From: Candidatus Parcubacteria bacterium | GTDB lineage: Bacteria > Patescibacteriota > Minisyncoccia > UBA6257 > 2-01-FULL-56-20 | Length of the DNA: 56,958 bases | Reading direction: 5' to 3' | NCBI GenBank assembly: GCA_027355945.1 | Contig: DAIEHA010000006.1 | Location: forward strand, 1 to 56,958 | Shown here: positions 2,005-54,604 of the stretch, in pieces | How the letters are laid out: each line of letters begins with the position of its first letter | Numbering within the stretch: position 1 is the first letter of the stretch | Position numbers and translations under genes: made by a program | The notes under the pieces: model-generated | What the model was told of the DNA's origin: nothing | The model's input: only the letters and a program-made list of their open reading frames with translations | Database searches by the model: none

Positions 2005-3225
2005 TTAAAGTCCCACTTGAGGGCTGTGCGAGGAGGGCGCGCGGCCCTTTTCATCCTTCCCCGCACCGAAGAACCGTACATAGAGATAGAGATTCGCGGC
2101 CATGACGACGCCGTAGGCGACGAAGGGGATCTCAAAGAGCGCCGCATCGAGGAGATAGCCGCTGAGACCGGTCCCTGCGGAGGATGCGACGAGGCGGGCC
2201 ACCTGATTCACCCCGAGCGCCCTCCCGAGCTCATCGTCGTCCACGCGCCGCGTGAGTTCGGCTTGCTGGATGGGAATCGCCGCCACGCGGAGCGCGGGAC
2301 CGAAAAGATAGACGAAGACCGCGAAGGGAAGGTATCTCACGAACGGGAAAAGGACGAAGAGCACCGTACCGATTCCTCGCGTGACAAGCGTGCTTTTCAG
2401 GAATCCGAGCCATCGCTCGAGGAGCGGCGCCGCAAGGAGCGCGCACGATCCTATGATGCCGCTCAGGAAGGTGTATTCCGCCATCTGTGCCTTCGGGATG
2501 TGGTAAACGATGAGGAAGAAGGGGATGAGGAACGGGACGACGAGTCCTTGGGAAAGCCCGTTCAGCATCCCTGTGGCGCTGAACTTCCCGATCGTCGCTT
2601 TTGTTTTCAGCACGCGAAGCGCACCCTTCCGTTCCACCACCTCCACGAACCAAAGGAACGGTATGCCGGCGGCTGCGATCGCCGCGGCAACAAGGAACAC
2701 GTCCGTCGTACTGAACATCTTTACGAGGAGCGCCCCGCCCGCTCCCGCCGCGCCGGCGAGGAATGTGAAGAAGGAGAAATACGAAGTCCGTTTCTCTTTG
2801 GGGACGAGGTCCGTAAGCACCGCGTTCTGCACCGGTTGCACCGCGCCGCCTACGCCGCCCCCCGCGAGCGATCCTGTCGCAGAATAGCCGCCGAGCATCG
2901 CCGCCGCCACGATCATCCATAGGTTTCCCCGTACGAGCACGAAGAGCGCGCTTATCGGCAGGAGCGCGCTTGTGAGGATGAGCGTCCACCGTTTGCCCCA
3001 CGTGTCGGTCGTAATGCCAAAGAGGAAGCTCATGAGGGCCGTTGCGAGCGTGGCAGCGACATAGATGAGTCCGATCACGGATGGACCGTAATGAAGGTCT
3101 ACGAGGATGTAGTAGGGGAACGCTACATTGATCATTCCCGCAGCGACGCTTCTCACGATCCGCGATATGCCGATGAATGCGATCCCTCGCTTCCGGAGGT
3201 GTGCGGCGATGGCGGTATCCTTCAT
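2005..3225 (-). CDS. Major facilitator superfamily transporter
   Basis: About 12 hydrophobic segments; motif A-like [10 protein letters not shown]; D-x-ELGRALG in the C-terminal half. Start at 3225 overlaps the upstream stop (ATGA). Confidence 0.85.
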
Positions 3226-6200
3226 GCGTTGTTCCGGAGCGCCGCAAGTTCTTGGAGGAGTTTCAGGAGCTCTTCGTAAAGCGATGCGAGCAGCGCCTCG
3301 GCGGCGGCGCGGGACATCGTTCCCGTGCTTCCGTTCGCGGAGGATGTTCCGGCGGAAAGGTAGTTTTGCACGCTCCACCCGGTCGTGCCGCCCGCATAGG
3401 CGACCTCATACCAGGTATAGCCATCCCCCCTTACCGGTCCCGCAATGATCGTTCCCGGCGTCTCCGGGGGTTCCGTCCCTATCTTGGAGGAATAGACGGA
3501 ATGGGAGGAGCGCACATTGAGCCAGGAGGTGGTCATCGTCGAGGTCGTGTTCGGGGTGAGCGATACCGTTCCTATCGAAGATCCTCCCGCGTCGGACGAC
3601 GAGGTATTCGTTCCCGACGAGGCCGCCGCGCCCCCATATCCCGTTCCATATCCTGCTCCATATCCCGAGGATCCATAGGAGACGCCGGAATTTCCAGAGG
3701 ATCCTCCGCCATACGATACGCCGCTCGGATAGGAAGCACCTCCGCTGTTCGAACCTGTTCCCGATGAGCCCGATCCGGACGTCGTACCACTTGTGCCGTT
3801 ATTTCCCGTATTCGTGCCCGTGTTCGTATTCGTACCCGTACCTGTACCTGTATTTGTCCCCGTACCCGTACTTGTTCCCGTTCCCGTCCCTCCGTTCGAG
3901 GTCGTGCCGGAAGATCCGGTACCAGACCCGGATCCTGTGCCCGTGTTTGTCCCTGTGCCCGTATTTGTCCCCGTACCCGTGCTTGTTCCCGTGCCCGAAG
4001 ACGTTCCCGTTCCCGTCGATGTCCCCGTTCCGGAAGATGTTCCCGTGGAGATCTGCGCCGCAAGGAATGCCGCAACGGCATTTGATTGCTGATCGGGCGA
4101 TGCCGATGTTGCGGTGACGGCAACCGTGCCTGCGGAAGCCGCTACCCCTTGGACCGTCGTGAAGTTCCCGATAATCCCGTCATCGATCACCTTCGTGAAT
4201 CCTGCTGCAGGGTTTATGGGTTCCGTGCCGTTGTTGCCCTGGAACGCGGCAAAAAGGAGATCGCCCGGAGCATGCGTGGTGACGCTTCCCGAGGTCCATG
4301 ATGCCGATGCCGTCGATTCGGTATCGGACGTCGCCGTCCCGTCGAGGGGGGCGGTCTTTGCGATCCCGGAATATTCCTGCAATGCGAGGATGTTGTATTG
4401 GTTCATGCCGGCGAACGTACAGGAGACCGCATCGGTGCCCCCTTTCACATTCGTCGCATACCAAATGTCCGTTCCAAGCCCCTTCGTGTTGTTGATGGCA
4501 TGCACCGCTTCGGTGAAGGTGTCTCCAAGGGTGTCCGTGCATCCGGTCACCTGATCCGAGGTGCCGCCGTACTCGAGTCCTACGATGATGGCATTTCCCG
4601 CGGCCACAGGATACGAAAAACTTCTTCCGATGTTCGCATACGAGGCCGCTCCCGATGCTTCCGAGGTGTTGTCCGTCGCTTGCACGAGCGTTATCGCTGC
4701 GGTGGCGGTGGACCCCGAGGGCGAGGTGCTCGTGGGTGCCGGGGCGGGCGTCGGGGAGGAAGAGGATTGCGTGGTTGCGGATACTGCTGCGGATTGCGAG
4801 GATACGTTCCCTGCGGCATCGTATGCGGCCACGCGATAGAGATACGAGGTTCCCGCGTTAAGACCGGTATCGGAATATGAGGTGTTCGCAATGGCCGCGA
4901 TCTGCGTCCCGTTGCGATAGACCTGGTATCCCTGCACGCCTACATTGTCGGTCGAAGGGTTCCATGAAAGATCGATCTGCTGCGTTCCGGCGGCGGTCGC
5001 AATAACGCCGGTCGGGACCGAGGGCGGCGTCGTATCGGGCGCCGGGGGGTTCGAGGGTGTCCCGGATCCCGCGTTCGAAGTTCCATAGCAGGAAGATGCA
5101 TCGAAGGCGAGCGCGTTGCCGCTCACGCCGTCCGGCGGGCCGTTCATGATGTTCAGATAGCAGTATTGCGCGGGGATCGCATACACGTGGCCTGACCATG
5201 CGGAAGCGTTGAATGGAGCTCCTGCGCATTGCGATGCCGATGTTGCGGGAAGGCCGTTATATTGTCCCGCCGCGTTGAGCGTGCCGCTGCACTGCCCTAT
5301 GTTGCCTCCGGAGACATCGGGGCCGATCGCGGGGAAGGGGATGGATGAGGGCCACCAGCTCGGCGCTCCGCTCAGATAGAACGATGCCGGGAGCGCGGTC
5401 GAGGCGGGGACGGAGTTCGGATAGACGGCGATGCTGCTCGGCACCTCGGAGGTGTTCATGCAGATGCTCGACCATCCTGGATCGGAGGAATTGCCGCACC
5501 AATGCGTCGCTCCGGTGCCGATATCGAAGTTCCCCCAACGGAGGAGCGTCGCTCCGGTGACCGGATCGAAGGGGATGGCGGGAGAGGCCCCTGCGTTCCC
5601 GTCCCCGACGATGTATGCCGCATCGAAATTGCCGTAATACTCCGCAGAGGACTCCGAATAATTCGTGGTGACGCCCGGGGTGCCAAGCACGTTGCCGATG
5701 AAGTTGCTGTAGCGGTTGTACCCGAGATCGGCGATGGCGATCGTTCCGGCATCCTTCGCGGTATAACTTCCGCAATTGCCGTTGGCGCATGATTCCCATC
5801 CGGTGAAGAAGTTGCGGAAGGCGGTGATCATGAGGTGGGTGCCATGGACGTCGTCCTCGTTCAGGTAGGTGCCCACATTGCCCTCGTACAGGTCGTAATC
5901 GTCGCCGTTCGAATGTTGCCAGTATGCGCCCCATACGTAATCCGAGAGGTCATATTGGTTGATGCAGAGGTTGTAGGCGGTCACGTCGCCCACGGCAGGC
6001 CCTTCGCCATTCGCAACGCATACGCGTGACTTCTGGATGATATTGTTCTGAATGAGGTTGTCCTCGCCTTGGCTGTCCTTGATGCCCCACGGATCGCAGG
6101 CATAGCCGCCCCCTTGGCACGTCATATTCTGTCCCATATCGAAGATATAGTTGTTCTGGATCGTGGCGTGCGCGGCGTCGGAAAGCCATATGCCGATCAC

Positions 6201-7205
6201 GTCCGGATGGATGATGCGGACGCCTTGGACCCAGGAGTTCCATGTGTTCGCGAATCCAATGCCATCGACGTCATTCGTCCCGGATCCATCGATCGAAAGG
6301 TTTTCGATCCCCACATTCTCCGACGGCTGGATCACCCAGGCCTGGGGCGTCTGCGCCGCGTTCCAGTTCGGATGGATGAGGCCGGGGGTTATGGTCATCG
6401 TCACCGGTCCCGTGCTGTTGCATGAGGGCGTGCAGGATACCGCCTGGACGATCTCCGATTGGAAGCGGTGCGGGCGACCGAAGCTTCCATCGGGGCCCGG
6501 ATAATCGCAGCCGGTCGATCCGTTGTACAGGTCGCTGCAGTTGAAATAGTTTCCATTGTCCACCGACGATCCGGCGCAGGGGGACCCTGAATATCCCGTG
6601 TCGCATTGGTCGAGGACGATCATGGTCGATCCCGGCACGATGACGGCCCCGGGAAGCCCGTTCGGGAAGGTGATCGAGGTTGCCCCTTTCGCGCCCCCGT
6701 TCCAGTTGTATGCCGCCGATATCCCTCCGGGGTATGTTCCATCGCTGCTCTCGAACCCTATGAGCGTGGTCCCGGCCCCTTCCTGGCAGTTCGCCGGCGA
6801 TGAGAAATCGAGGAACGTGGCGTTCGCTCCCGAACCCCGCAGTTCGACGTTGTTCGCCCCTTGGACGCAGATGCCGGTGCTCAGGTGATATGTTCCCGGA
6901 CCGAGCAGCACATAGGTATCGGCCGGAGCGTTCCTCAAGGCCGTCACTATCTGCGATGCCGTGACCGACGTGCCCGCAGCGGTCACCGTCGCACAGTACG
7001 AATTGGTGCATTGGGCCCATGAGGCGCTTGGGATCCCGCCCGTGACGCCCGCCTGGCTCCAATCGGCACCGCGGTTCGCGCTCAGGATCCCCGTCCACGG
7101 GGTCGCCGCTTCGGCCCTTGGCGTCGCGTAGAGGAATATCGCTCCGGCGATCGCCATCCCTCCCATTGCAGCAAGTCCTACCCAACGCGATTTTTTATAA
7201 TGCAT
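3222..7205 (-). CDS. Large secreted protein (1327 aa): right-handed beta-helix/pectin-lyase-like region, FN3, G/T/S-rich linker, SH3b-like domain, C-terminal amphipathic helix
   Basis: N-terminal signal/TM; beta-helix-like repeats ([35 protein letters not shown]); FN3 [11 protein letters not shown]...[23 protein letters not shown]...[26 protein letters not shown]; SH3b-like WLNVRS...[18 protein letters not shown]. Confidence 0.75.
3790..4050 (-). repeat. Low-complexity coding repeat (GT/GS/TN)n linker
   Basis: Encodes [35 protein letters not shown]...; degenerate 6-nt periodic DNA repeats. Confidence 0.85.
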
Positions 7206-9195: not shown

Positions 9196-9870
9196 CTATC
9201 CCTGGGTTGGCGGGAGGCTTATCATGATCCCTCCTGATGCCGTCGTGGAAAGTTCGAAATAGGTATTGGAGGATCCTCCCGTGGTAAAGCTGAGCGGCAT
9301 CGCCGAAGGATCGACGTTGAAGATGACCTGCTGGTTCGGATACGATGACCCCGGCGCGCCGATGCATGTGCCGTTCTCCCCGAAGGTGAACGCGCTTGTG
9401 AGCGGCGGCTGAAGGTCGCCCATTTCGTTTGCGACGAGCATCAGGTTGAGAGGTACGCATTCGGCGACCGATCCCATCTGGATATTGACGTTGAGCGTGA
9501 GCTGGGACCCCGAGAGCGTTGCCCCGGTGATCGAGAGCGTGTCGTATCCCTCGGTCCAGCTTACCGGGGGCGTCGCATAGGTCGCGGAATAGGATGCGAG
9601 AAGCGTGGAGGATGCCGTCGAGCTTGCGGTGGTGGATCCGTTCCCGCCGATCCCCGTCACGCTCGAACTTGCGGTCGAACTTGCCGTCGAGCTTGCGGTA
9701 TCCGTCAGATTGTAGGCGACGGTGCCCGTGGGAAGGGGAGAGCTCACTACGTAGGTCCCTCCCGTGTTGAACACGACGATATACGCGATCGCACCAAGCA
9801 CGATCGCAGCGCCGAGCAGGACGAGCAGGAGGCGGTTAAGGGTGAGATGGGTGCGAAGCCAGTGCATCAT
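9196..9870 (-). CDS. Membrane-anchored exported protein with Ser/Thr-rich linker
   Basis: N-terminal TM LLLVLLGAAIVLGAIAYIVVF; TASSTASSTASS repeats; extended -10 TGcTATAAT upstream. Confidence 0.65.
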   Translation of the reverse strand: MMHWLRTHLTLNRLLLVLLGAAIVLGAIAYIVVFNTGGTYVVSSPLPTGTVAYNLTDTASSTASSTASSSVTGIGGNGSTTASSTASSTLLASYSATYATPPVSWTEGYDTLSITGATLSGSQLTLNVNIQMGSVAECVPLNLMLVANEMGDLQPPLTSAFTFGENGTCIGAPGSSYPNQQVIFNVDPSAMPLSFTTGGSSNTYFELSTTASGGIMISLPPTQG

Positions 9871-9932
9871 ATAAGACCATTATAGCAGATAGGCCCCGTG
9901 CGGATGGGGCGTCGATGGTCCGCGATGAGGCG

Positions 9933-10937
9933 TCACTGGTCCTCTTCCTTGCGGGCGTGGTCGGTGGCGCGCGCATCCACCTCGTAGGAGGTGTTCTGGG
10001 CCTCGAAGAAATTCACGAGTTCAAGGACGTCGGTCGCGCCGCTCATCCATTTTGCGGGGTTCTTCGCGCCGTAATGGGCGCCGATGCCAAGCTCTTCGAG
10101 GCGCCGGTCGGCGACGTATTGCACGTACTGATTCACATAATCCGCATTGAGTCCGAGGATGCCACGGGGGAAAAGGTCCTTGTTGTAATTCACCTCGAGG
10201 TCCACGCCTTGTACGACGATGTTCTTGATCTCTTCGGCGAACTCGCGCGTGAGGATCTCGGCGTTCTCTTCGAGGATGTTCTGGATGAGATTCATGCCGA
10301 ACTTGAGATGGAGCGATTCGTCCCGAAGCACCCAATTGATGAGCGATCCAAGGTTGCGAAGCTGGTTTCTTTGGCGGAACGAGAGCACCACCATGAAGCC
10401 GCTGTAGAACCAGACGCCCTCCATCACGATGTTCGTTGCGACGAGATTGCGGATGAAGTCCTTCTTGCCCTCCGAGGTCGCTACGTCGAGCGTATCCTCT
10501 GTCATGCGCTTCATATAACGGTTGATGTAATCCTCCTTCGCCCTCATTGAGGGGATGTTCGTGTGAAGGCTGAATGCTTTGTCGCGATCGATGGGGAAGG
10601 TCTCGAGCACATATTCGAAGGCGACGCAGTGGTTCGCCTCCTCCCACATCTGCTTCGCAAGGTAGAGGTGGCACTCGGGAGATTTGAGATACGGATAGAT
10701 GCCGAGCGCGATCGAGCGGTTCACGATGAGTTCTGCGGGATTGAAGAACGAGATGAGGAATTCCACCGCGTGGCGCTCGTCATCCGTCATCTTCTCCCAA
10801 TCGAAGAGATCCTCCTTGAGCGCGATCTCATGGGGGAACCAGGTGTTGCGCACCGCCTGGTTATAGAGGTCGTATGCCCATTGGTAGCGGATGGGGTGGA
10901 TGTTCATGTCCTCGGGGGACGCTTTTCCTATCAGCAT
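9933..10937 (-). CDS. nrdB: Ribonucleotide reductase small subunit R2 with class Ic signature
   Basis: FFNPAE69LIV, E99E100ANH103CVAF107, MEGVWFYSGF, RDESLH, C-terminal NFFE...Y. The ORF-track extension upstream of 10937 overlaps nrdA and is spurious. Confidence 0.93.
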   Translation of the reverse strand: MLIGKASPEDMNIHPIRYQWAYDLYNQAVRNTWFPHEIALKEDLFDWEKMTDDERHAVEFLISFFNPAELIVNRSIALGIYPYLKSPECHLYLAKQMWEEANHCVAFEYVLETFPIDRDKAFSLHTNIPSMRAKEDYINRYMKRMTEDTLDVATSEGKKDFIRNLVATNIVMEGVWFYSGFMVVLSFRQRNQLRNLGSLINWVLRDESLHLKFGMNLIQNILEENAEILTREFAEEIKNIVVQGVDLEVNYNKDLFPRGILGLNADYVNQYVQYVADRRLEELGIGAHYGAKNPAKWMSGATDVLELVNFFEAQNTSYEVDARATDHARKEEDQ

Positions 10938-11007
10938 ATCTATGGTTGTGTTCGTTTGTTGGGAATAGGGGATCTGGGGATATCGTACGAGCGGGGATCG
11001 TGCTCGA

Positions 11008-13644
11008 TCATTGGCAGCTGTCGCAGACGAGATCGGCCTGCGGGTCCGAAGGAGGCATGATACGCGATTCCCTCCGTGTTGCCGGCTGCGGTTCCGTATG
11101 GGAGGGATGCGATTCCGCGGCCTTCGTGCGGAACGCCGCCTCGCGGATCTCCACATCCGGTGTCCCCGTGAATGAGGCGACCGCGGTCGTGGCGATAGCG
11201 GTGGCGGGCGCCACGGCATTCGTTCGTGCGGGAGCCATTGTTTCCGCGGACATCTCCGCCGCGGCGTGCATCACTGCGGCAAAGCCCCGCTTGCCCATCG
11301 CCTCGGCCTTGTTCACGTGCACCGTGCTCTGCTCGGCGGTGTGGCGCGGCTTCATATGGAGGTAATAGGTCGTCTTCACGCCCTTCTCCCATGCCGACAT
11401 GTAGATATCCATGGTCTCCCCGATGTCCCTTGTCTCGAGATACATGTTCCGGGAAAGGGCCTGGTCGATCCACTTCTGGGCCCGCGCTGCGACCTCGATG
11501 AACGCGTAGGGTGACGTGCTGAACGATGTCTTATAGATATCCCGGATGTGCGGGGGTATCTCGCTGATCGCGGTAATGTCCCCTTGCTCTGCGATGATGC
11601 GGTCCTTCACTTTGTCCCATATCCCCAGGTTTTTAAGGTCGTTCGCGAGGTTATGATTGAGATCCATGTATTTTCCCGAGATCTTGTTGCGGGAGAATAC
11701 CTGCGCAAAGCGGGGGTCGATGCCCGGCGTCGTTCCCGCAACGAGGCCGATGTTCGCATTGGGCGCCACGGCCATCAATGTGGCGTTCCGCATGCCCTTT
11801 CTCACCTTTTCCCTGAGTTCGTCCCAGTGGAGTCCTTTATAATGGTGGGATTTGTCCACGGTGAGCTCCTTCCCGCGTTCCGCCTCGAGCCGTTTGATCG
11901 AATCGATGGGGACCATTCCTTTCGACCATCCCGACCCTTTGAAGTTGGGATATGCACCGCGTTCCGCCGCAAGGTTCGCGCTTTCGTCGATAGCCACATA
12001 GCTTACGAACTCGAACATGCGGTCCGCAAAATCCCATGCGTGGGGACTGTCGTAAGCCATGCCGAGCTGTTCAAGCACGTCGGCGAACCCCATCACGCCG
12101 AGGCCTATGGCCCGGTTCTCTTTATCGGCATGTTCCGCTTCGGCGATGGGGAGCTGATTGATGTCGATCAGATCGTCCAGCTGGCGCACCGCATAGCGGA
12201 TGCTTTCCTCGAGCCGTTCCCAGTCCACCTGCTTATGGTGCACATGGGCCGCAAGATTGAGGGATGCGAGATTGCAGACGGCGATATTCTCCCGGTCCTG
12301 CGGAAGGCATATCTCCGTGCAGAGGTTCGACATATGGATCGTGCCCGTGTTGTTGTTGAGCGCCCGAAGATTGATGGGGTCCTTCCAGGTGAGCCATGGG
12401 TGCGAAGTGGTCTGGAGCGCCACGAGGATCTGGCGGAACTGCTCTTCCGCCGGGACCTTCTTGAATACGCGGAGCTCGCCGCGCTCCGCTTTTTCGATGT
12501 ATTCCGCATAGCGTTTACTGAACGCTTTGCCGTAAAGTTCCACGAGGTCCGGCGTCTCCTTGGGGTCGAACATATACCAGATCCCGCCCTCCTTCACCCT
12601 GCGCATGAACTCATCGGTCATGAATACAGCGGTGTCCGCCGTGCGCATGCGCATATAGTCGTCTCCCGCATTGTGCTTCCAATCTATGAACTCCGGGAAA
12701 TCGAGATGCCAGTTCTCCATATAGAAACAGAGCGCCCCCTTCTTCTTCCCTCCGCGCTGGATCGCGCGGATGGCAGTATCGATTATTTTCGCAAACGGGG
12801 TTGGGCCGCTCGAGGGGGTGTTGTTCGAGGAGAGGGGAGAGCCCGTGGCCCGCAGCTTCGTCACCGATGCGCCTATGCCTCCGGAGGCTTTGGAGAGCAT
12901 CATGACGTCCGCGACCGATTTTGCGATGTGCGCCATATCGTCCTCGATCTGCATGAGGAAACAGTTTGAAAGCGAGGGGCGCGTGGTCCCGGCCCCGATA
13001 TTCGTCGAGCCTCCGGAAATATACTCATGGCGCGACATTTTCTCGTAAAAGCGCTTTGCCCAAAGGGAGGGATCTTTCTCGTTGAATGCGAGGCCCATTG
13101 CGACGCGCATGAAGAAATACTGGGGTGTTTCGTACGCCTCTTCGTTCTTGTCCTTGATCGCATAGCGATGGAGGAGCGTATCGAGGCCGCTGTAGAGGAA
13201 TATCTCATCTCGTGCGATATCGAGCGCGCCTGCGAGCGCTTTCAGGTCGAACGTGCCGAGCATGCGGGCATCAAGAAGGCCCTCTTCCACACCTTTTTTG
13301 ACCCAGCCCGGGAACATATCCCGATGTTTTTTACGGAGCACCTCCTCATCGTTATCGTATTCGCCGATCACGCGGCGATATACGGTCTTCAAAAGCAGCC
13401 GAACCGCCACCTTATCGTATTCGATATCCTCTTTTATATTCTGCACCGCGGCATTGATCGTTGCCCGGTCCATCTCTTCCGTGGTGATGCCATCGTAGAG
13501 GGTGAGGCGCGTTTCCGTGGCGATCTGCGTGACCATGCTGATGGGATCCTGGAGCCCTTGGCATGCGCGTTCGATCGAACGATTGATCTTGTCGGCATTG
13601 AACGGCTCCCGCGTGCCGTCCCGTTTGGTGATGGTGAGTTCCAT
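11008..13644 (-). CDS. nrdA: Ribonucleotide reductase large subunit (class I alpha) with N-terminal ATP cone
   Basis: ATP cone ITKRDGTREPFNADKI; SNCF; SNLCTEI (thiyl Cys); APNANI; KTTYYL; C-terminal CDSCQ. Confidence 0.95.
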   Translation of the reverse strand: MELTITKRDGTREPFNADKINRSIERACQGLQDPISMVTQIATETRLTLYDGITTEEMDRATINAAVQNIKEDIEYDKVAVRLLLKTVYRRVIGEYDNDEEVLRKKHRDMFPGWVKKGVEEGLLDARMLGTFDLKALAGALDIARDEIFLYSGLDTLLHRYAIKDKNEEAYETPQYFFMRVAMGLAFNEKDPSLWAKRFYEKMSRHEYISGGSTNIGAGTTRPSLSNCFLMQIEDDMAHIAKSVADVMMLSKASGGIGASVTKLRATGSPLSSNNTPSSGPTPFAKIIDTAIRAIQRGGKKKGALCFYMENWHLDFPEFIDWKHNAGDDYMRMRTADTAVFMTDEFMRRVKEGGIWYMFDPKETPDLVELYGKAFSKRYAEYIEKAERGELRVFKKVPAEEQFRQILVALQTTSHPWLTWKDPINLRALNNNTGTIHMSNLCTEICLPQDRENIAVCNLASLNLAAHVHHKQVDWERLEESIRYAVRQLDDLIDINQLPIAEAEHADKENRAIGLGVMGFADVLEQLGMAYDSPHAWDFADRMFEFVSYVAIDESANLAAERGAYPNFKGSGWSKGMVPIDSIKRLEAERGKELTVDKSHHYKGLHWDELREKVRKGMRNATLMAVAPNANIGLVAGTTPGIDPRFAQVFSRNKISGKYMDLNHNLANDLKNLGIWDKVKDRIIAEQGDITAISEIPPHIRDIYKTSFSTSPYAFIEVAARAQKWIDQALSRNMYLETRDIGETMDIYMSAWEKGVKTTYYLHMKPRHTAEQSTVHVNKAEAMGKRGFAAVMHAAAEMSAETMAPARTNAVAPATAIATTAVASFTGTPDVEIREAAFRTKAAESHPSHTEPQPATRRESRIMPPSDPQADLVCDSCQ

Positions 13645-13692
13645 GGAATGGGAAGATGGTTTTTTTGTTCGTCCGACCTATGTGGGAAAATC

Positions 13693-13701
13693 ATTGTAGC
13701 A
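13693..13701 (-). promoter_or_regulatory. Extended -10 element of the nrdA promoter
   Basis: Reverse complement reads TGcTACAAT, about 50 nt upstream of the nrdA ATG. Confidence 0.55.
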
Positions 13702-13728
13702 CCCACCCTCCTTAGATGAGGCCGTCCA

Positions 13729-13737
13729 TGTGGATAA
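13729..13737 (-). promoter_or_regulatory. Perfect DnaA box (TTATCCACA)
   Basis: Plus strand reads TGTGGATAA, just upstream of the nrdA promoter; 1-mismatch copy TGTGGATAC at 14057-14065. Confidence 0.65.
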
Positions 13738-14206
13738 TGGCTCGACAGGTTCCCCGAAATATTTTTTCGCGGTCGTCTGTTTTTGCCCCTAGGACAACGA
13801 GGTCGATAACGGAGTCGCAGCGAACGATCCTTGGAAGATATTCCTTCGTCCGTTGGTCCACATGACCTTAAAAATCGACGTCTTTTTTGTCGTCGTTTCA
13901 AAAAATAAATGACAATAGTTATAAATTATTTTGTAATATTCATTACGTGACTCTTTTTTTGATTCTTTCTTTGAAAGAACCCTTAGGAAGAAAAATCTGC
14001 CCAGTGACGGGGCTTTAGAACGATCCTGAGTAAAATTCGCAATCGTTATCCTCGTGTGTGGATACGTGGTCCTTTCGCGATCCTCATTTTTTTGGATCTA
14101 CGCCCTCTTGACGGATTTCGGAAAGATCACAAGGATGGCATGTGATGCGATGGTGCGATGTCCCTCCTTAAGCTTTTGTTTATGATGTCCATGCTACGCT
14201 TCCGGC

Positions 14207-16054
14207 ATGGAATTCGTGAAGCGGCATAGGAATAGTGCGGCAATCGGTATCGTAGTAGTCGTGTTATTTGCCGCATTCTTTCTTTTCTTCTTTCGCAGAC
14301 ATCCTACTGCGTTTGCCGGTTTGCCGGATCATGCCATCTCGCGTTTGGAGGTATTGCCGGCTGATGCTGCACGCGGCACGGAATCCGGGAGTGCCGACGA
14401 TCCTTTCAAGGGATCCGATATCCTTGGAAATGCGTCTTCCGATGAGGCAATGCCCTCTTTTGCCGTAAATGGGCTTGATGCGATTTCTCAGTTTGCCGCT
14501 TCCGATGTTTTGCCGGTCTCTCCTCATGCATCTTCGGGACCCGATTCCGGATTATCATCGATTGCCGCAGTACCTCCTCCATATCCCAATATCTCTGTAT
14601 CCGATCTTTCGGCTGGTGCATCCTCTTCTTCTCTCTTGTCCTCCTCCTCCCTTCCCGCCGAGGTTCATCTATGTCCATTCCCGTACGCATCGTCCTCGAT
14701 CCCTTCATCCTCGAGACCCGTGATCATAAATGAGGTCGCATGGATGGGTTCTCCCTCTTCTTCGTTGCGGAGCGGTCTTGTTTCCGGCAACGCGGAATGG
14801 ATCGAATTGAAGAACGTCTCAATGGGAGCCATTTCACTTGAGGGATGGAGTTTCCTCGATGCGGCAGGAAAGATGCGGATTCCTATGCCGGACGATGCCT
14901 ATCTCGATTCCGGTGGGTTCCTCCTTCTTGTACGCGGAAGCACCACCTTTCCATATTCACGCGCACGGGAGGTTCCTTATACGGGTATTTTGAGAAATTC
15001 CGGCGATGACCTTGCGCTTATGGATCCTTCCTGTGCGGCCTCCGATCGTGTCTTTGCCGGTGATGGTTGGCCTGCGGGAGATGCCGCGGCGAAGCACACG
15101 ATGGAACGTGATGCCGATGGGACATCTTGGCATACGAGCGTAGGGATCGGAGGGACGCCAGGAGGAGAGAATTCCGTTTCGATGGAGCATGTGTATTACG
15201 AGGCTGTGATCCATCTTGCTGGCTCCGGCGGTGCATCAATAGCGAGCGATCCTTCGGGAATCGCATGCAATGACGGAGTTCGATGCATCGGTTCGTATCC
15301 AGCAGGAACCAAAGTGAAACTCAAGGCGTTACCCGCCCCGGGCACCTTGTTCGGAGGATGGTCTGGTGCGTGTTTCGGCATCGGTTCATGCAGTTTTATG
15401 GTTGTGGGACCTACTGATATCACTGCCTCTTTCCACTATCCTGAATCTCCCTCTTCATCCGAAGCCGGTGATATATCCTTGCATTCTTTGTCCCATTCTT
15501 CCTCTTCTTCGGTCCCCGGCGAGGCCATCATCGCCGATCCATCGCGTTCCGCGTCCTCATCCTCATCATCGCCTTCCGGGACATTTTCAGGGCGTATTTC
15601 CATTGCTGCGGTGCAGATTGCAGGGGAAAGATCCTCGGATGATTTCGTAAAGATCTACAACGCATCAGGATCCGCCATCGATCTTGGAGGGTGGAAGTTG
15701 AAAAAGCGGTCATCCACGGGTGCAGAATACTCCCTTCGCACCTTTCCCGAAGGGACCTCCATTGCTTCCCACACCTATTTTATATGGGCCAATTCCGAGA
15801 ATGGCTTTTCTGCATCCCTTGCCGCCGATTCCTCGAGCACGGAGACGATTTCTGCTGATAACAGCATCGCCTTGCTCGATCCCGAGGGGAAGGTGGCAGA
15901 TGCTCTTGCGTGGGGTTCGGGAAAGGGACAATTCGGGGAAGGGAACCCGTTTCCTTCAAATCCGGGACCCGGTCAAGTCCTTTCCCGCATATTTTCAGAT
16001 CCGAGCGGACCGGTCGATACGGGCGATAATGCAAACGATTTCCTGCTTCATTGA
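14207..16054 (+). CDS. Membrane-anchored protein with two lamin-tail domains and an InlB B-repeat-like domain
   Basis: N-terminal TM; LTD1 VIINEVAWMG...EWIELKN...ISLEGWSF; LTD2 ISIAAVQIAG...DDFVKIYN...IDLGGWKL...DTGDNANDF; B-repeat-like SDPSGIAC...YPAGTKVKLKALPAPGTLFGGWSGAC. Confidence 0.8.
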   Translation: MEFVKRHRNSAAIGIVVVVLFAAFFLFFFRRHPTAFAGLPDHAISRLEVLPADAARGTESGSADDPFKGSDILGNASSDEAMPSFAVNGLDAISQFAASDVLPVSPHASSGPDSGLSSIAAVPPPYPNISVSDLSAGASSSSLLSSSSLPAEVHLCPFPYASSSIPSSSRPVIINEVAWMGSPSSSLRSGLVSGNAEWIELKNVSMGAISLEGWSFLDAAGKMRIPMPDDAYLDSGGFLLLVRGSTTFPYSRAREVPYTGILRNSGDDLALMDPSCAASDRVFAGDGWPAGDAAAKHTMERDADGTSWHTSVGIGGTPGGENSVSMEHVYYEAVIHLAGSGGASIASDPSGIACNDGVRCIGSYPAGTKVKLKALPAPGTLFGGWSGACFGIGSCSFMVVGPTDITASFHYPESPSSSEAGDISLHSLSHSSSSSVPGEAIIADPSRSASSSSSSPSGTFSGRISIAAVQIAGERSSDDFVKIYNASGSAIDLGGWKLKKRSSTGAEYSLRTFPEGTSIASHTYFIWANSENGFSASLAADSSSTETISADNSIALLDPEGKVADALAWGSGKGQFGEGNPFPSNPGPGQVLSRIFSDPSGPVDTGDNANDFLLH

Positions 16055-16519: not shown

Positions 16520-16587
16520 TCCGTCTCCCGTGAATTCGGCAGAACGGCGATTCTGACTTCGCGGAGGTTGGGGTATAATGAATGGCA

Positions 16588-17175
16588 ATGAGAGGAAACC
16601 ATATGGTCATTTTTATCATTGCTTTTATCATCGCGGTGGTTGGTGGATCGGTGGCATGGCACTATCTTTTAGGCGTTCCCAATCCGCCCCTTCCTTTGGC
16701 TCAAGTAGTTATCGGCGCCTCAGGATCTTCCTCTACGGCGGCTCAGGCTGCAGATTCCACGTCAACCGACGTCGTGAACCCCGTACTTCCCAAGGAAAGC
16801 CTTTCCATCGATGGGGCGACATGGACCGTGGAGATGGCGACAACCACCGTCGAGCAGGCCCGCGGCCTTTCGTATAGGACGAGCCTTGCCCCTGGAACGG
16901 GCATGCTGTTCATGTTTCCGACGCCTGGAGTGCAGAATTTCTGGATGAAAGACATGAATTTCCCTCTTGATATGATCTGGATCGCGCAAAATGGGACCGT
17001 TGCCGGATTCACCGAGAACATTCCTGCTCCTGCGCCCGGTACCGCGCTTTGGAATCTTAAGATCTACACCTCTCCCGCCGGAGTGAGTCAAGTATTGGAG
17101 GTGAACGCAGGTTCGGTCGCACGCTACCGCATAAAGACGGGGGATAACGTGACGCTCTCGCCCCTTGCGTCATGA
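16588..17175 (+). CDS. DUF192-family exported protein
   Basis: VEMATTTVEQARGLSYR, GMLFMF, FWMKDMNFPLDMIWI, VLEVNAG; N-terminal TM; TATAAT at 16574-16579. Confidence 0.88.
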   Translation: MRGNHMVIFIIAFIIAVVGGSVAWHYLLGVPNPPLPLAQVVIGASGSSSTAAQAADSTSTDVVNPVLPKESLSIDGATWTVEMATTTVEQARGLSYRTSLAPGTGMLFMFPTPGVQNFWMKDMNFPLDMIWIAQNGTVAGFTENIPAPAPGTALWNLKIYTSPAGVSQVLEVNAGSVARYRIKTGDNVTLSPLAS

Positions 17176-17245: not shown

Positions 17246-18280
17246 ATGGCAGCAACGGCACGTGTGGCGATCAACGGATTCGGACGGATAGGCCGTCTTA
17301 TCTTCAAAGAGGCATTCGAACGGCAAGGGCTTGAGGTGGTGGCCATCAACGATCTCGGGAATGTCGACAATCTTGCATATCTTCTCAAATATGATTCCGT
17401 GTACGGACGTTATGCCAAGGATGTGCGTGCCGATGCTGAACATGGAAAGCTCATCGTGGACGGCAAGGAGATCGCATTCCTTCAGGTAAAGGACCCGACC
17501 CAGCTTCCCTGGAAGGACCTCAATGTGGATATCGTGGTCGAATCCACGGGCCTTTTCGATGAATATGAGAAAGCCAAGGTGCATCTTGATGCAGGGGCGA
17601 AAAGGGTGGTCATCACCGCTCCGGCAAAGGATGCGGATGGTGCGATAGGGCAGACGGTGCTCATTGGCGTGAATGAAGAGAACCTCAAGATATGTGCGAT
17701 CAGTTCGAACGGATCTTGTACGACGAATTCCGCGTCGCCGGTGATGCAGATATTGAGCGAGAACCCGGGCATCGTAAAAGCGTCGCTTTCCACCGTGCAT
17801 GCGTACACCTCGACCCAGGCGCTCGTCGATGGGCCGATTCGCACGGGACATGATTTTCGCAAAGGGCGCGCGGCTGCGCACAACACCGTTCCGGAGACCA
17901 CGGGGGCGGCGATCAGCGTTGCGAGGGCCATCCCTTCGCTTGCGGGGAAATTCGATGGAGTATCGTTCCGTGTGCCGAATATCACAGGATCGATCTCCGA
18001 TATCACGTTCATCGCCAAGCGGCCGACCACGGTCGAGGAGATCAACCAGATCCTCACCGATGCCGCGAATTCCCCGCGCTGGCAGGGGATACTCAAAGTG
18101 ACGCGCGATCAGATCGTTTCATCGGACATCGTGGGAGAGAAATATGGTGCCACTGTGTCGCTTGACCTCACCAAGGTCATCGATGGCGATATGGTGAAGG
18201 TGTTCTCCTGGTACGACAACGAAGCAGGGTATGTTTCGACCCTGATCCAGCACGTGGAGAAGGCTGCCGCACTCATTTAA
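17246..18280 (+). CDS. gap: Type I glyceraldehyde-3-phosphate dehydrogenase
   Basis: VAINGFGRIGR, VESTG, catalytic NGSCTTN, SWYDNE. Confidence 0.97.
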   Translation: MAATARVAINGFGRIGRLIFKEAFERQGLEVVAINDLGNVDNLAYLLKYDSVYGRYAKDVRADAEHGKLIVDGKEIAFLQVKDPTQLPWKDLNVDIVVESTGLFDEYEKAKVHLDAGAKRVVITAPAKDADGAIGQTVLIGVNEENLKICAISSNGSCTTNSASPVMQILSENPGIVKASLSTVHAYTSTQALVDGPIRTGHDFRKGRAAAHNTVPETTGAAISVARAIPSLAGKFDGVSFRVPNITGSISDITFIAKRPTTVEEINQILTDAANSPRWQGILKVTRDQIVSSDIVGEKYGATVSLDLTKVIDGDMVKVFSWYDNEAGYVSTLIQHVEKAAALI

Positions 18281-19944: not shown

Positions 19945-22900
19945 ATGAAAAAAATCGCTTTAGTCGGTTTTGTTTTTGTTTTCTTTGCGGGGATGCACGG
20001 GATCGTCCATGCGGCGCTTGCCCCGACGCAGTGCGCCACGGTTGGCACTCCGTTCGCGACCATCACCCAACATATCACAAACGATCCTGATTCGGGTGTT
20101 CCGGGAACGTGGGCGATCGATGCGTTCACGGAGCATGTGAACGTGTGGCTCGATACTGATGGGGTGACCTATTGTGCGAGTGCCAGTACGACGGATGGGA
20201 CATTCGTCACGACGGGGCCCTCTTCCCCGGAAAAGAGTACGCCGCTCGCGGCGGGGATCACCGGTACGTTCACCGGAGGAGAGACCTACGTGATTCCTGG
20301 CACTTTCGCGCTTTCCGGGAACTACAGCACATCTTCCCCGAAATCGGTGACCCTGCCCGACAGTTCGACGGCAGGATTCTCCTGGTGGGTCAATGAGATG
20401 TTCCCTTCCATATCCACAAGCAGCGGTTCAAGCTACGTCACCACCTATTCGCTCACCTATGTGACGCCGAATGACGGTATATGGACCGATAGTTCCGGCG
20501 GCGACCATGGGGATATCGGTCCTGCGGTGAATATGAGGACGAACACGGGATATTCCACCATCCAGGAGGCGGTGGATGCGGCAGCGCCCGGCGATACCAT
20601 CGATGTCGCTTCCGGGATCTATCCGGAAACGGTGTCGATCGACAAGAGCCTCACTTTGAATGGCGCCCAGACCGGTGTTCCCGGGGCGAGCGCGAACTTC
20701 GTTCCGCGTCTCGGTCAGGAATCCGTCGTTGATGGCATGAATATCTCGACGAACGGGGTCGCGGTGAATGGATTCACTTTCATCAATCCGGGAAGCCAGA
20801 TGAGCATCAATTCATCCACCATACTTTCCGGCGTGAGCATCCAAAACAATATCTTCACCGGATATTCAAGCGTGGGCATGCCGACCGACAATGCGGGAAA
20901 CCTGCTCATTGAAGGAAACCTGTTCCATGATCCCGCCTCCAACGCCGAGCCGATGCAGATAAAGGCGGATGGAACGCTCGGGGGATGCAACGGGACCCAG
21001 GTGGTGCATAACGTCTTCATGGGAGCGTCCAATAACGGCGGTGCCGATATCAACTTCTCCTGTACGGGGAGCCATTCCTCGAACATCACCGTCTCCGGCA
21101 ATGCGGACAACGGAAACACGAACGAGAGCAGTTTCGCGGCGTTCTCCGGGATTACGGATGGCATTACGGTCACCGATAATCATGCGACCGGCATAAGTGG
21201 GTCCGCGCTCTTTTTCTGGGGCGATGTTTCGGGCACCGCTGCCGTCACGGGGAACGTCATCACCGGAGGACAGGGCAGCGGGGTGAGCATCCATGGCAAT
21301 GACGCGTATGGTACGCCGGATGCCCCCAATTCAGGGACTTTCACGATCACCGGCAACGATCTTTCCGGCAATTTGCGAGGTGTATACCTTGGTGATGACG
21401 GTGGCGCGTTCACGTCGTCCGCCATGATCGATCTTTCCGGCAACGATCTTTCCGGGGAAGGTAGCGCAGGCGTAGAGAACTCTTCGAAAGTGATCACTGC
21501 TGCGAACGTGAATGCTTCCGGGAACTGGTGGGGAGCCTCCACTGGACCTTTGGATGCCGTTTCGGGCGATGGAAGCATCCCCGATATGAACGCAAGCGGG
21601 ACCGGATCGCCGGTCATCGGCGCAGTGAAGTATTCCGGATGGTGCACGAACTCCTATTGTGATATGACGCCTCCCTCGCTCGTATACAACGCGCCGACGG
21701 CGATCGTCATGGTAAGTTCCACACTTTCCGTTTCGGTGACTGCGCGCGACGGGCAGACCGGGATCTCGAGCGTCTTCGTTGATGCGTATGACGCGAGCGG
21801 CACCTATCTCGGGTCCTGCGGGTCTGGTGCCTCCGCTCTTCACGGAGCGTCGAGCTACACCTATGACTGCAATCTGGATGTCTCCTCATACCCTGACGGC
21901 ATGTATGCATTGCGCGCGAACGCGGAGGACATTGCGGGTAATACGACGACCGTGCCGATGGCGTTTGCCGTGAGCCATGAGGCCGTGATCATTCCTCCTC
22001 CCGTGCTTGCATGGCCGGTGAATGGGGATATCACGCCTACCAACGTGTTCACGTTCCGGTGGAATCCCACCACAAGCCCCATTCCGGGCCCCATGTCGTA
22101 CGAATTCCATTCGACCATGAATCCCGCAGAAACGAACGGCGTGCTTACGACCGGACTTTGGAATTCTGGAAAGCTCTCCACCACATCCATTCTTTCGAGC
22201 GGCGCACCGAACGGGATATGGTACTGGCAAGTGCGCGCCATCGATCCGGCAGGCAACGAGAGTCCCTGGAGTGACGTATGGAACGTCAGGCTCAATACCG
22301 TTCCTCCGCCGGCGATCGCGGCATGTCCCGCAGGAACGAAACAGGTATTCGTGGAATCCGACACGGTCGATTCGAAGGACCCTGCTCCCACCGTGGGCTC
22401 GACGACGCTTGCCGACGGACAGACATATCTTCTCGTGGCGTCGGGTACCTGGCAGAATGGCAGCATCAATGCAGCCGATGCCGCATATGCGAGCGTGGAC
22501 GATTGGAGCACGTACATGCAGGGATATTCCATAGGAGCCGCACAACTTGGATCCGGGGAATTCCAGCTCCAGGTCGGCGGTTCGTTCGTTGATTGGGGGG
22601 CGTATCAGCCGAGCCATCAGTATTCCTATCTCTATACCGCCACGGGCCAGCCACTGAGCCTCATGGTATTCGATGGGAATTCCTCGACCTCTCTCCCGAC
22701 GCCGAATCCTTCCTGGTACGGCGATAATGTGGGAAGCCTTGCGGTCAATGTATATGCGTGCCAGGCACCGGTCTTCGTAACGACCGAAACCGCAACGGGC
22801 ATAGGCCAGACGGACGCCACCTTGAACGCAATGAACGGTGATTATGGCGCGACGGGGCATTCATTCTGGGTCTCCACATCGACGTTCAGCACCGCAAGCC

Positions 22901-39810: not shown

Positions 39811-39859
39811 GGCACGCGCGTCCGGTTTCCGGGATGCGGCCTGTGCTACAATGAATGCA

Positions 39860-52655: not shown

Positions 52656-52667
52656 GGGCGGGAGCCG

Positions 52668-53165: not shown

Positions 53166-53189
53166 TGTATTAATATTACCATAACATAT

Positions 53190-54587: not shown

Positions 54588-54604
54588 AACAAATCATATC
54601 TATC

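What the first reader, a model, noticed from the sequence alone, without database searches (positions are those of the whole stretch)
9933..10937. Class Ic (Mn/Fe, tyrosyl-radical-free) ribonucleotide reductase R2
Seen: the first metal ligand is Glu (FFNPAE69) rather than Asp, and the radical-Tyr position four residues after the first His is Phe (E100-x-x-H103-x-x-x-F107; codon TTC at 10619-10617). The spacing 69/100/103/107 matches Chlamydia trachomatis E89/E120/H123/F127. Established: these two substitutions define class Ic R2, which uses a Mn(IV)/Fe(III) cofactor that tolerates peroxide and lacks the NO-sensitive tyrosyl radical. Inference: this organism makes dNTPs aerobically and under oxidative or nitrosative stress, rather than depending only on scavenged nucleotides or anaerobic NrdD.
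Basis: partly seen in the sequence, partly recalled or inferred. Interest (0 to 1): 0.68.

Follow-up and report, generated by a model that had tools for sequence, protein, structure and literature searches.

The report
Phe-type (class Ic-like) ribonucleotide reductase R2
This is the small subunit of an oxygen-dependent ribonucleotide reductase from a Parcubacteria-type (CPR) bacterium; it has phenylalanine where most such enzymes keep their radical tyrosine, a known enzyme type (class Ic) that is universal in the sampled relatives of this ultra-small bacterium.

Summary
Window 9933-10937 (-) encodes a 334-aa R2 (NrdB) with E69, E100, H103 and F107 (TTC, 10617-10619). These align residue for residue with Chlamydia trachomatis R2c E89/E120/H123/F127. 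The other ligands (E173, E207, H210) and the radical-path residues W33 and Y318 are also present. The best solved-structure matches are the two known Phe-type R2c proteins, C. trachomatis (257 bits) and Saccharopolyspora erythraea (247 bits); the next hit scores 140 bits. R2lox models fall below their cut-offs. A complete nrdA lies 70 nt upstream on the same strand. The same signature and the same nrdA-nrdB order occur in all 80 related species genomes examined (nearly all labelled Patescibacteria or Paceibacterota) and in 120/120 close homologues.

Caveats:
- Identity to C. trachomatis R2c is only 38%.
- In a rough NJ tree the clade never forms an exclusive clade with the characterised R2c proteins.
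- The C. trachomatis relay residue Y222 is replaced by W202.
- Metal content cannot be read from sequence.
- The stress-tolerance and "not scavenging / not NrdD" inferences were not tested.

Verdict: a new lineage of a known kind, a sound annotation of modest interest.

The parts
9933..10937 (-). nrdB: class I RNR small subunit (R2), 334 aa, Glu/Phe (class Ic-type) signature
   Evidence: ORF and translation. PF00268 at 258 bits, NCBIfam NF007186 at 364 bits against a cut-off of 237. Best PDB hits are Ct R2c 1SYY (1.9e-75) and S. erythraea R2 6Y2N (2.2e-72). Foldseek top hits are the same proteins.
10731..10733 (-). E69 (GAA): first carboxylate ligand, Glu instead of Asp (= Ct E89)
   Evidence: invariant in 120 homologues and 80 loci
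10629..10640 (-). E100-x-x-H103: first ExxH metal motif (= Ct E120/H123)
10617..10619 (-). F107 (TTC): redox-inert Phe at the radical-tyrosine position (= Ct F127; E. coli Y122 by established alignment)
   Evidence: invariant in 120 homologues and 80 loci
10419..10421 (-). E173: bridging carboxylate ligand (= Ct E193)
10308..10319 (-). E207-x-x-H210: second ExxH metal motif (= Ct E227/H230)
10839..10841 (-). W33: electron/radical-relay Trp (= Ct W51, E. coli W48)
   Evidence: role from PMC4118035
10332..10334 (-). W202: occupies the position of Ct Y222 (activation-specific electron relay); Trp in this clade
   Evidence: invariant W in 80 loci; role of Y222 from PMC4118035
9984..9986 (-). Y318: C-terminal radical-transfer Tyr (= Ct Y338, E. 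coli Y356), in the invariant motif NFFEAQNTSYEVD
10938..11007 (-). 70-nt nrdA-nrdB intergenic spacer (operon junction)
   Evidence: the median spacer in related loci is about 48 nt
11008..13644 (-). nrdA: class I RNR large subunit, 878 aa (ATP cone + all-alpha + barrel)
   Evidence: PF03477, PF00317 and PF02867; NCBIfam NF005101 at 1243 bits against a cut-off of 988. Best PDB hit is P. aeruginosa NrdA 5IM3 at 647 bits. It lies upstream on the same strand in 80/80 related loci.
13387..13635 (-). single N-terminal ATP cone of NrdA (aa 4-86), with the motif TKRDGTREPFNADKI
   Evidence: sequence. A regulatory function is inferred, not tested.
12274..12327 (-). NrdA active-site N440/C442/E444 (thiyl-radical Cys loop) and C457
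   Evidence: coordinates; C228 (12961-12963) is the partner redox Cys
11362..11367 (-). NrdA Y760-Y761: radical-transfer tyrosine pair (= E. coli Y730/Y731)
11014..11025 (-). NrdA C-terminal C874-x-x-C877 redox shuttle pair
   Evidence: the ...CDSCQ end is conserved in related loci

Best explanation
Window 9933-13644 (minus strand) is an nrdA-nrdB operon for a class I (O2-dependent) ribonucleotide reductase of a Parcubacteria/Paceibacteria-type CPR bacterium from a mine-drainage metagenome.

Shown:
- The beta subunit keeps a full dinuclear metal site (E69, E100, H103, E173, E207, H210) and the radical-transfer residues (W33, Y318).
- It has Phe at the site where class Ia/Ib enzymes hold the tyrosyl radical.

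Inferred: it cannot store its oxidant on that tyrosine and must use a metal-centred oxidant. By analogy with C. trachomatis and S. erythraea R2c, the most likely mechanism is as follows.
1. A Mn(II)/Fe(II) site, with Mn in site 1 next to F107, reacts with O2 or H2O2 to give Mn(IV)/Fe(IV).
2. This is reduced by one electron through W202 and W33 to the active Mn(IV)/Fe(III) state.
3. During turnover that state reversibly oxidises C442 of NrdA over the path W33 - Y318 - Y761/Y760 - C442.
4. NrdA is re-reduced through C228/C457 and the C-terminal C874xxC877 pair.
5. The dNDP products are phosphorylated by the Ndk that is also encoded in the window.
For: - Residue mapping to Ct R2c with a constant offset.
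- The best solved-structure matches by sequence and by fold are Ct R2c and S. erythraea R2. They score 257 and 247 bits; the next hit, C. botulinum R2, scores 140 bits, E. coli R2 about 72 bits and R2lox about 57 bits.
- S. erythraea R2 also shows E and F in the alignment (protein identity from PMC7467353).
- NCBIfam RNR-beta equivalogs pass their cut-offs and all R2lox models fail theirs.
- NrdA is complete, with all catalytic, radical-path and shuttle residues.
- The nrdA-nrdB order holds in 80/80 related loci and the signature W-E-E-H-F-E-W-E-H-Y holds in 80/80 loci and 120/120 homologues.
- R2 is 81% identical on average across these loci, against 57% for neighbouring GAPDH and 36% for DUF192. 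This indicates strong purifying selection on a working enzyme in a conserved chromosomal neighbourhood.
- Literature gives the definition of class Ic (Phe for the radical Tyr, retained C-terminal Tyr, Mn/Fe) and its chemistry (PMC3824934, PMC8463856, PMC4118035).
- Ndk is encoded at about 54410-55099.
Against: - No metal or radical data can come from sequence.
- Identity to the characterised R2c proteins is only 36-38%.
- In 200 NJ bootstraps the Parcubacteria clade never formed an exclusive clade with Ct/Se R2c. D/Y proteins are interspersed among E/F ones, so the E/F state is evolutionarily labile and cofactor transfer by homology is weaker than the PDB ranking suggests.
- Ct Y222, described as conserved among R2c, is Trp here.
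- The tail after Y318-E-V-D is short, variable and Lys/Glu-rich, unlike the Ct tail.
- No transcript evidence was found: three small metatranscriptomes from the same study held nothing.
- The AF2 model is only moderate, with a mean pLDDT of 68.
Confidence: 0.75

Rival explanations
1. It is a functional RNR beta subunit with a metal-centred oxidant, but of different metal composition: for example a class Id-like Mn2(IV/III) centre, or a high-valent di-iron centre, rather than Mn/Fe.
For: The Phe requires a non-tyrosyl oxidant but does not specify the metals. The clade is deep-branching: 38% identity to Ct R2c and never an exclusive clade with it in the NJ bootstraps. The R2c scaffold is known to mismetallate (PMC8463856).
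Against: Class Id beta is a very distant hit (6CWP, 2.3e-11) compared with R2c at 1e-75. From my own knowledge, class Id proteins keep the Tyr and pair with short NrdA proteins, whereas this NrdA is a long protein with an ATP cone related to P. aeruginosa NrdA. Both characterised E/F R2 proteins use Mn/Fe (PMC4118035, and my own knowledge for S. erythraea).
Confidence: 0.14
2. The oxidant is stored on another amino acid: a radical on W202 or another Tyr/Trp, or a modified residue as in the metal-free class Ie.
For: An invariant Trp (W202) sits at the position of the redox-active Ct Y222.
Against: All six metal ligands are intact, unlike class Ie (my own knowledge). Position 202 is Y, W or F in many D/Y and E/F relatives alike, so it is not a clade-specific innovation. 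No NrdI-like gene is adjacent.
Confidence: 0.05
3. [quoted passage not shown]
For: R2lox proteins also carry Glu/Phe-type sites and Mn/Fe. The NCBIfam R2lox models give weak hits.
Against: Every R2lox model is far below its cut-off (best 86 bits against 194), whereas the RNR-beta model scores 364 against 237. The PDB R2lox hit is only 1.6e-14. The C-terminal Tyr and its conserved motif are retained, whereas R2lox lacks them (PMC3824934). The gene lies directly downstream of nrdA in 80/80 loci.
Confidence: 0.01
4. It is a catalytically silent beta-prime partner, like yeast Rnr4 or the apicomplexan R2_e2, that needs a second Tyr-bearing R2 encoded elsewhere.
For: Phe at the radical site is also seen in some non-canonical eukaryotic R2 copies (PMC3824934).
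Against: Those proteins have lost metal ligands and/or the C-terminal Tyr (PMC3824934). Here all are invariant. It is the only R2 in the window and the only one beside nrdA in all 80 loci.
Confidence: 0.02

Closest known systems
Chlamydia trachomatis class Ic R2 (R2c; PDB 1SYY, 4D8F, 4M1I)
   Same: The ligand set is the same (E/ExxH/E/ExxH). Phe sits at the radical-Tyr position, with W51 = W33 and Y338 = Y318, and the NFFE...Y C-terminal motif is shared. The query aligns over residues 12-321 with only a 2-residue gap. It is the top hit by sequence (257 bits) and by fold.
   Different: Identity is only 38%. Ct Y222 is W202 here. The tail after the C-terminal Tyr is variable and Lys/Glu-rich. 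The cognate NrdA has one ATP cone and 878 aa; from my own knowledge, Ct R1 has about 1047 aa and three cones, and the NCBIfam PRK12365 model is below its cut-off. The two never form an exclusive clade in the NJ bootstraps.
Saccharopolyspora erythraea R2c (PDB 6Y2N) and its Bradyrhizobium/Tardiphaga relatives (cluster of P0132)
   Same: E/F signature, 247 bits, same length class.
   Different: Identity is 36%. This group is 61% identical to Ct R2c and clusters with it, and with a D/Y gammaproteobacterial protein (P0134), rather than with the Parcubacteria clade.
Pseudomonas aeruginosa class Ia NrdA (PDB 5IM3), for the large subunit
   Same: It is by far the best solved relative of the NrdA: 647 bits against 403 for the next. 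The alignment covers query residues 3-795.
   Different: The P. aeruginosa protein has an extra N-terminal ATP cone, so the query aligns from its residue 148. From my own knowledge, its partner NrdB is a Tyr-radical di-iron protein.
[quoted passage not shown] PDB 7QBK)
   Same: Ferritin-like fold and a Glu-rich site without a radical Tyr.
   Different: The similarity is very weak (1.6e-14) and the models are below cut-off. The query keeps the C-terminal Tyr and is in an operon with nrdA.

Membership tests
Class Ic RNR beta (R2c) | Ribonucleotide reductase small-subunit (ferritin-like) fold | tested here: met
   PF00268 at 9.7e-77 over the full model. The AF2 model matches R2 structures with TM about 0.73.
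Class Ic RNR beta (R2c) | Intact dinuclear site with Glu, not Asp, as the first carboxylate ligand (E / ExxH / E / ExxH) | tested here: met
   E69, E100, H103, E173, E207 and H210 align to Ct E89, E120, H123, E193, E227 and H230.
Class Ic RNR beta (R2c) | Redox-inert residue (Phe; also Leu/Ile/Val) in place of the radical-harbouring Tyr | tested here: met
   F107 = Ct F127. It is invariant in 120 homologues and 80 loci. Definition from PMC3824934.
Class Ic RNR beta (R2c) | Retained radical-transfer residues: the Trp near site 1 and the C-terminal Tyr (absent in R2lox) | tested here: met
   W33 = Ct W51 and Y318 = Ct Y338; criterion from PMC3824934 and PMC4118035.
Class Ic RNR beta (R2c) | Cognate NrdA with catalytic Cys, Tyr-Tyr pair and C-terminal Cys pair, encoded with it | tested here: met
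   NrdA at 11008-13644 has C228, N440/C442/E444, C457, Y760/Y761 and C874xxC877. It is adjacent in 80/80 loci.
Class Ic RNR beta (R2c) | Accessory, not defining: the activation-relay Tyr (Ct Y222), reported as conserved among R2c | tested here: not met
   The position is W202, invariant in the clade. Among E/F cluster representatives the position is Y (11), W (7), F (4), L (1) or Q (1), so it is not universal in Phe-type R2. Trp is also redox-active.
Class Ic RNR beta (R2c) | Groups phylogenetically with biochemically characterised R2c | tested here: inconclusive
   Ct and Se R2c are the nearest PDB proteins and the smallest distances outside the family. However, the NJ bootstrap never joins them in an exclusive clade, and D/Y proteins are interspersed. 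R2c was also polyphyletic in Lundin et al. 2010, as cited in PMC3824934. No ML tree could be run.
Class Ic RNR beta (R2c) | Active Mn(IV)/Fe(III) cofactor; no tyrosyl radical; highest activity with Mn+Fe | not testable with these tools
   This needs reconstitution, an activity assay, EPR/Mossbauer spectroscopy and metal analysis.
R2lox | Matches curated R2lox models; lacks the C-terminal Tyr and R1-binding tail; not linked to nrdA | tested here: not met
   The best R2lox model scores 86 bits against a cut-off of 194. Y318 is present. nrdA is adjacent.
Class Ia/Ib R2 (tyrosyl radical) | Tyr at the radical position, with Asp as the first ligand | tested here: not met
   The query has F107 and E69. 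The class Ia and Ib NCBIfam models are far below their cut-offs.
Class Id R2 (Mn2) | Sequence relationship to the F. johnsoniae-type NrdB, with Tyr retained | tested here: not met
   6CWP is hit only at 2.3e-11, and the query has Phe instead of Tyr.

The most novel reading that the evidence does not exclude
The Paceibacteria/Parcubacteria NrdB clade could be an independent, deep-branching origin of the tyrosine-free R2 state rather than an offshoot of the chlamydial/actinobacterial R2c. Its own solutions would be Trp instead of Tyr in the activation relay and a non-canonical variable C-terminal tail. It might also have a different cofactor or assembly route, for example H2O2-driven assembly that lets nominally fermentative, ultra-small symbionts make dNTPs at trace oxidant levels.
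Probability: 0.15. Interest if true: 0.55.

Novelty: new member of a known kind. Interest (0 to 1): 0.3.

Why it matters
CPR/Patescibacteria are usually described as reduced, largely fermentative symbionts. A strongly conserved class I RNR whose cofactor needs O2 or H2O2 was found in every related genome examined. At least 575 matching stretches occur in species-representative genomes, and all of the best 80 are E/F-type. This implies that the lineage makes its own deoxyribonucleotides and regularly sees oxidants. It also adds a large, environmentally widespread, non-pathogen and non-extremophile group to the tyrosine-free R2 proteins. That weakens the idea that class Ic is mainly an adaptation of pathogens and extremophiles to host NO or hostile niches (PMC4118035). 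For enzymologists, a 38%-identical R2c with Trp at the Y222 position is a useful natural variant for dissecting cofactor activation. None of this changes the known categories of RNR.

Tried and rejected
- Rfam scan of the whole window: no family reached its threshold, so there is no known riboswitch or leader at nrdA.
- Sigma-70 promoter and terminator scan of 9700-14200: no promoter, and terminator-like sites only at chance level. A TGcTACAAT extended -10-like motif lies 57 nt upstream of nrdA. The exact pattern recurs in only 6/69 related upstream regions against about 3.5% in shuffles, so it is not convincing.
- NrdR and a second RNR: tblastn with an NrdR from a related locus, and with R1 and R2, found only the ATP cone of NrdA and the genes themselves.
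- Expression: three metatranscriptomes from the same study hold no words or contigs of the operon. They are small and so uninformative.
- Structure prediction from a shallow alignment (30 sequences, about 80% identical) gave only pLDDT 68. It was used only for fold ranking, not for site geometry.
- NJ phylogeny with Kimura distances and 200 bootstraps resolves the clade itself (100%) but not its deeper placement. No ML software was available.
- The apparent sister sequence P0157 (E/F) is not next to an R1. Its neighbour, a DUF7487 protein, shows no similarity to NrdA, so it gave no functional anchor.
- Literature searches for class Ic or RNR together with Parcubacteria, Patescibacteria or CPR found no open paper describing this. 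RNRdb itself could not be consulted.
- Class 'O' minimal RNRs with Phe/Leu ferritin partners (PMC9531940) were considered and rejected. The alpha subunit here is a full-length class I NrdA with an ATP cone, and the beta subunit has a normal C-terminus.

Full report
**Observation.** The minus-strand ORF at window 9933-10937 translates to a 334-residue protein.
- E69: GAA, 10731-10733, in FFNPAE.
- E100: GAG, 10638-10640.
- H103: CAC, 10629-10631.
- F107: TTC, 10617-10619.

HMMER alignment to the C. trachomatis R2 structure 1SYY runs from query residue 12 to 321 with a single 2-residue gap. This gives a constant +20 offset, so the residues correspond as follows:
- E69/E100/H103/F107 = Ct E89/E120/H123/F127.
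- E173 = E193, E207 = E227, H210 = H230.
- W33 = W51 and Y318 = Y338.

The start codon at 10937 is supported by a conserved N-terminus (MLIGKASPED...) in homologues.

**What the gene is.**
- Pfam assigns the whole protein to Ribonuc_red_sm (PF00268, 258 bits).
- NCBIfam RNR-beta equivalogs pass their curated cut-offs (NF007186: 364 bits against 237). Every R2lox, class Ia and class Ib model falls far below its own cut-off.
- Against all PDB sequences the top hits are the three C. trachomatis R2c sequence entries (about 257 bits) and 6Y2N (247 bits). 6Y2N is the Saccharopolyspora erythraea R2 (PMC7467353), and its alignment also shows Glu and Phe at the two diagnostic positions.
- The next hit, C. 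botulinum R2 (6ZJK, a D/Y protein), drops to 140 bits. E. coli R2 scores about 72 bits and an R2lox about 57 bits.
- An AlphaFold2 model was only moderate (pLDDT 68). A Foldseek search with it ranks the same proteins first.

**The partner subunit.** Seventy nucleotides upstream on the same strand lies an 878-aa NrdA at 11008-13644. It has an ATP cone, the all-alpha domain and the barrel domain, and scores 1243 bits on NF005101. It carries every residue needed for catalysis:
- C228 and C457.
- N440/C442/E444.
- The Y760-Y761 radical-transfer pair.
- A C-terminal C874-x-x-C877 shuttle pair.

Its closest solved relative is P. aeruginosa NrdA (5IM3, 647 bits). The window contains no NrdR and no second RNR, and no Rfam element. 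It does contain a nucleoside-diphosphate kinase (about 54410-55099), the enzyme that turns RNR products into dNTPs.

**Organism and distribution.** The window carries GAPDH, MreB/MreC/PBP2, tRNA synthetases, EF-P, L21, RF and very large surface proteins without known domains. The sequence is held by DNA runs labelled mine-drainage metagenome.

Close homologues of the R2 (79-94% identical) are labelled Parcubacteria, Paceibacterota, Kaiserbacteria or Patescibacteria where a name exists.

The best 80 loci nearly all carry Patescibacteria-type labels as deposited; four carry other labels (one Nitrospira, two Gammaproteobacteria, one Peribacteria). In all 80:
- nrdA lies upstream on the same strand.
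- The R2 signature is W33-E69-E100-H103-F107-E173-W202-E207-H210-Y318.

The same is true of the 120 best database homologues for the nine positions tested there; W202 was not scored in that set.

R2 averages 81% identity and R1 about 70% across these loci. The neighbouring GAPDH (present in 26 loci) averages 57% and DUF192 (50 loci) averages 36%. So the operon sits in a partly conserved chromosomal neighbourhood and is under strong purifying selection. This argues for a working, vertically inherited enzyme rather than a recent mobile acquisition.

**Relationship to characterised class Ic.** Identity to Ct R2c is 38% and to Se R2c 36%. In a library of 50%-identity cluster representatives, the family is covered by two full-length representatives (76% and 55% identical), followed by a drop below 40%.

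Among the 150 best representatives the pair at positions 69/107 is distributed as follows:

| Pair at positions 69/107 | Representatives |
|---|---|
| E/F | 34 |
| D/Y | 47 |
| E/V, E/L or E/I | 11 |
| E/Y | 7 |

The Phe-type state is therefore common and is interleaved with Tyr-type proteins.

An NJ tree with 200 bootstraps gives these results:
- The Parcubacteria clade is recovered in 100% of replicates, and in 97.5% with its 55%-identical relative P0122. P0122 sits in an nrdR-nrdA-nrdB locus.
- The clade never forms an exclusive clade with Ct/Se R2c.
- Its usual neighbour is another E/F protein (P0157, 85% of replicates).
- A D/Y gammaproteobacterial protein (P0134) nests beside Se R2c and its Bradyrhizobium relatives.

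NJ at these distances is not reliable for deep nodes, so phylogenetic membership is inconclusive. The result agrees with an earlier report that R2c is polyphyletic (Lundin et al. 2010, as discussed in PMC3824934).

There is one residue-level difference. Ct Y222 mediates reduction of the Mn(IV)/Fe(IV) intermediate and is described as conserved among R2c (PMC4118035). Here it is an invariant Trp, W202. Other E/F representatives have Y, W, F, L or Q at that position. Also, the tail after the invariant NFFEAQNTSYEVD motif is short, variable and Lys/Glu-rich.

**Mechanism.** Shown: there is a complete class I alpha/beta pair, and the beta subunit has an intact dinuclear site and radical-transfer path but no oxidisable residue at the radical-Tyr position.

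It follows from established RNR chemistry (PMC8463856) that the oxidant must be held elsewhere. In both characterised E/F proteins it is the metal cluster itself.

Inferred by analogy:
1. A Mn(II)/Fe(II) centre, with Mn in site 1 next to F107, is activated by O2 or by two H2O2.
2. It is reduced through W202 and W33 to Mn(IV)/Fe(III).
3. It then reversibly oxidises C442 of NrdA over the path W33 - Y318 - Y761/Y760 - C442.

I put about 0.75 on this reading. About 0.14 goes to a metal-centred oxidant of different composition, and the rest to an amino-acid radical elsewhere, a silent beta-prime subunit, or R2lox.

Dependence on O2 or H2O2 for cofactor assembly is sound (PMC9816063, PMC8463856). 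The claim about tolerance of oxidative or nitrosative stress rests on a hypothesis made for Chlamydia. The review that states it also notes that no R2c has been shown to bind Mn/Fe in vivo (PMC4118035). The window contains no oxidative-stress genes that could support it. Whether the organism also has NrdD or NrdJ, or relies on salvage, cannot be decided from 57 kb. No transcripts of the operon were found in the three small metatranscriptomes available.

**Novelty.** Class Ic R2 has been known since 2004. This is a new, large and environmentally widespread lineage of that kind. Searches of the open literature found no paper linking class Ic RNR with Parcubacteria, Patescibacteria or CPR. RNRdb could not be consulted and probably already lists such sequences. 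The finding is a correct and useful annotation with a modest ecological implication, not a new kind of system.

Noticed in passing
window 9936-9983 (R2 residues 319-334): The R2 tail after the radical-transfer Tyr is invariant only for E-V-D. It then becomes a short, variable Lys/Glu-rich stretch with no conserved terminal hydrophobic residue, unlike the R1-binding C-termini of E. coli, human or Ct R2. The R1-binding determinant of this clade may lie in NFFEAQNTSYEVD itself.
   Followed up: partly
window 11026-11280 (NrdA residues about 789-873): NrdA has a roughly 85-residue Ala/Thr/Pro-rich, low-complexity linker between the barrel and the terminal CDSCQ. In related loci the linker varies in length (about 46-200 residues) and in sequence, while the ...P-x-DP...C-x-x-C-Q end is kept.
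   Followed up: partly
cluster representatives P0134, P0132; Ct and Se R2c: A D/Y (tyrosyl-type) gammaproteobacterial R2 nests next to the S. erythraea/Bradyrhizobium E/F proteins in the NJ tree. E/Y, E/V, E/L and E/I forms also occur among near relatives. The Glu/Phe state therefore looks evolutionarily labile rather than a single origin.
   Followed up: partly
L081 5001-7724 (also L082): An E/F-type R2 homologue (P0157, 329 aa) is the usual NJ neighbour of the Parcubacteria clade. It is not beside any nrdA. It follows a ribosomal-protein cluster and precedes a 568-aa DUF7487 protein with Cys-rich and endonuclease-like motifs and no similarity to NrdA.
   Followed up: partly
window 54410-55099 (+), 55105-55569 (+), 29911-30537 (+): Three other genes of deoxynucleotide metabolism are present: a nucleoside-diphosphate kinase (NDK domain from residue 67 of the ORF, so the true start is probably later), a NUDIX hydrolase, and an HD-domain YfbR-like 5'-deoxynucleotidase.
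   Followed up: no
window 16582-17175 (+) and 17246-18280 (+): DUF192 and GAPDH genes lie near nrdAB here, in 50 and 26 of the 80 related loci respectively. This is a partly conserved neighbourhood across Paceibacteria.
   Followed up: partly
window 3222-7205 (-), 19945-23865 (+), 14207-16054 (+): There are very large predicted surface or secreted proteins. One has 1327 aa with a long Gly/Thr/Ser/Asn repeat region. One has 1306 aa with no Pfam hit. One has 615 aa with two lamin-tail domains and an InlB B-repeat-like domain.
   Followed up: no
window 39851-42253 (+): An 800-aa VirD4/TraG/TrwB-like coupling ATPase (type IV secretion or DNA transfer) has no other obvious T4SS genes identified beside it.
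   Followed up: no
window 52296-54587 (+): A class II (Asp/Lys/Asn-type) tRNA synthetase ORF of 763 aa has its OB and catalytic domains only from residue 316. Either it has a roughly 300-aa N-terminal extension or the TTG start is miscalled.
   Followed up: no
window 13693-13701 (-) and 13645-13960: A TGcTACAAT extended -10-like motif lies 57 nt upstream of nrdA, below an AT-rich stretch. The tool's promoter scan found nothing, and the exact pattern recurs in only 6/69 related upstream regions.
   Followed up: partly
window 9988-13980, DNA run X1: The source metagenome contains several co-occurring relatives of this operon: contigs at 90-99% identity with many synonymous-looking differences. 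One variant contig skips 98 nt (13772-13871) of the nrdA upstream region.
   Followed up: no
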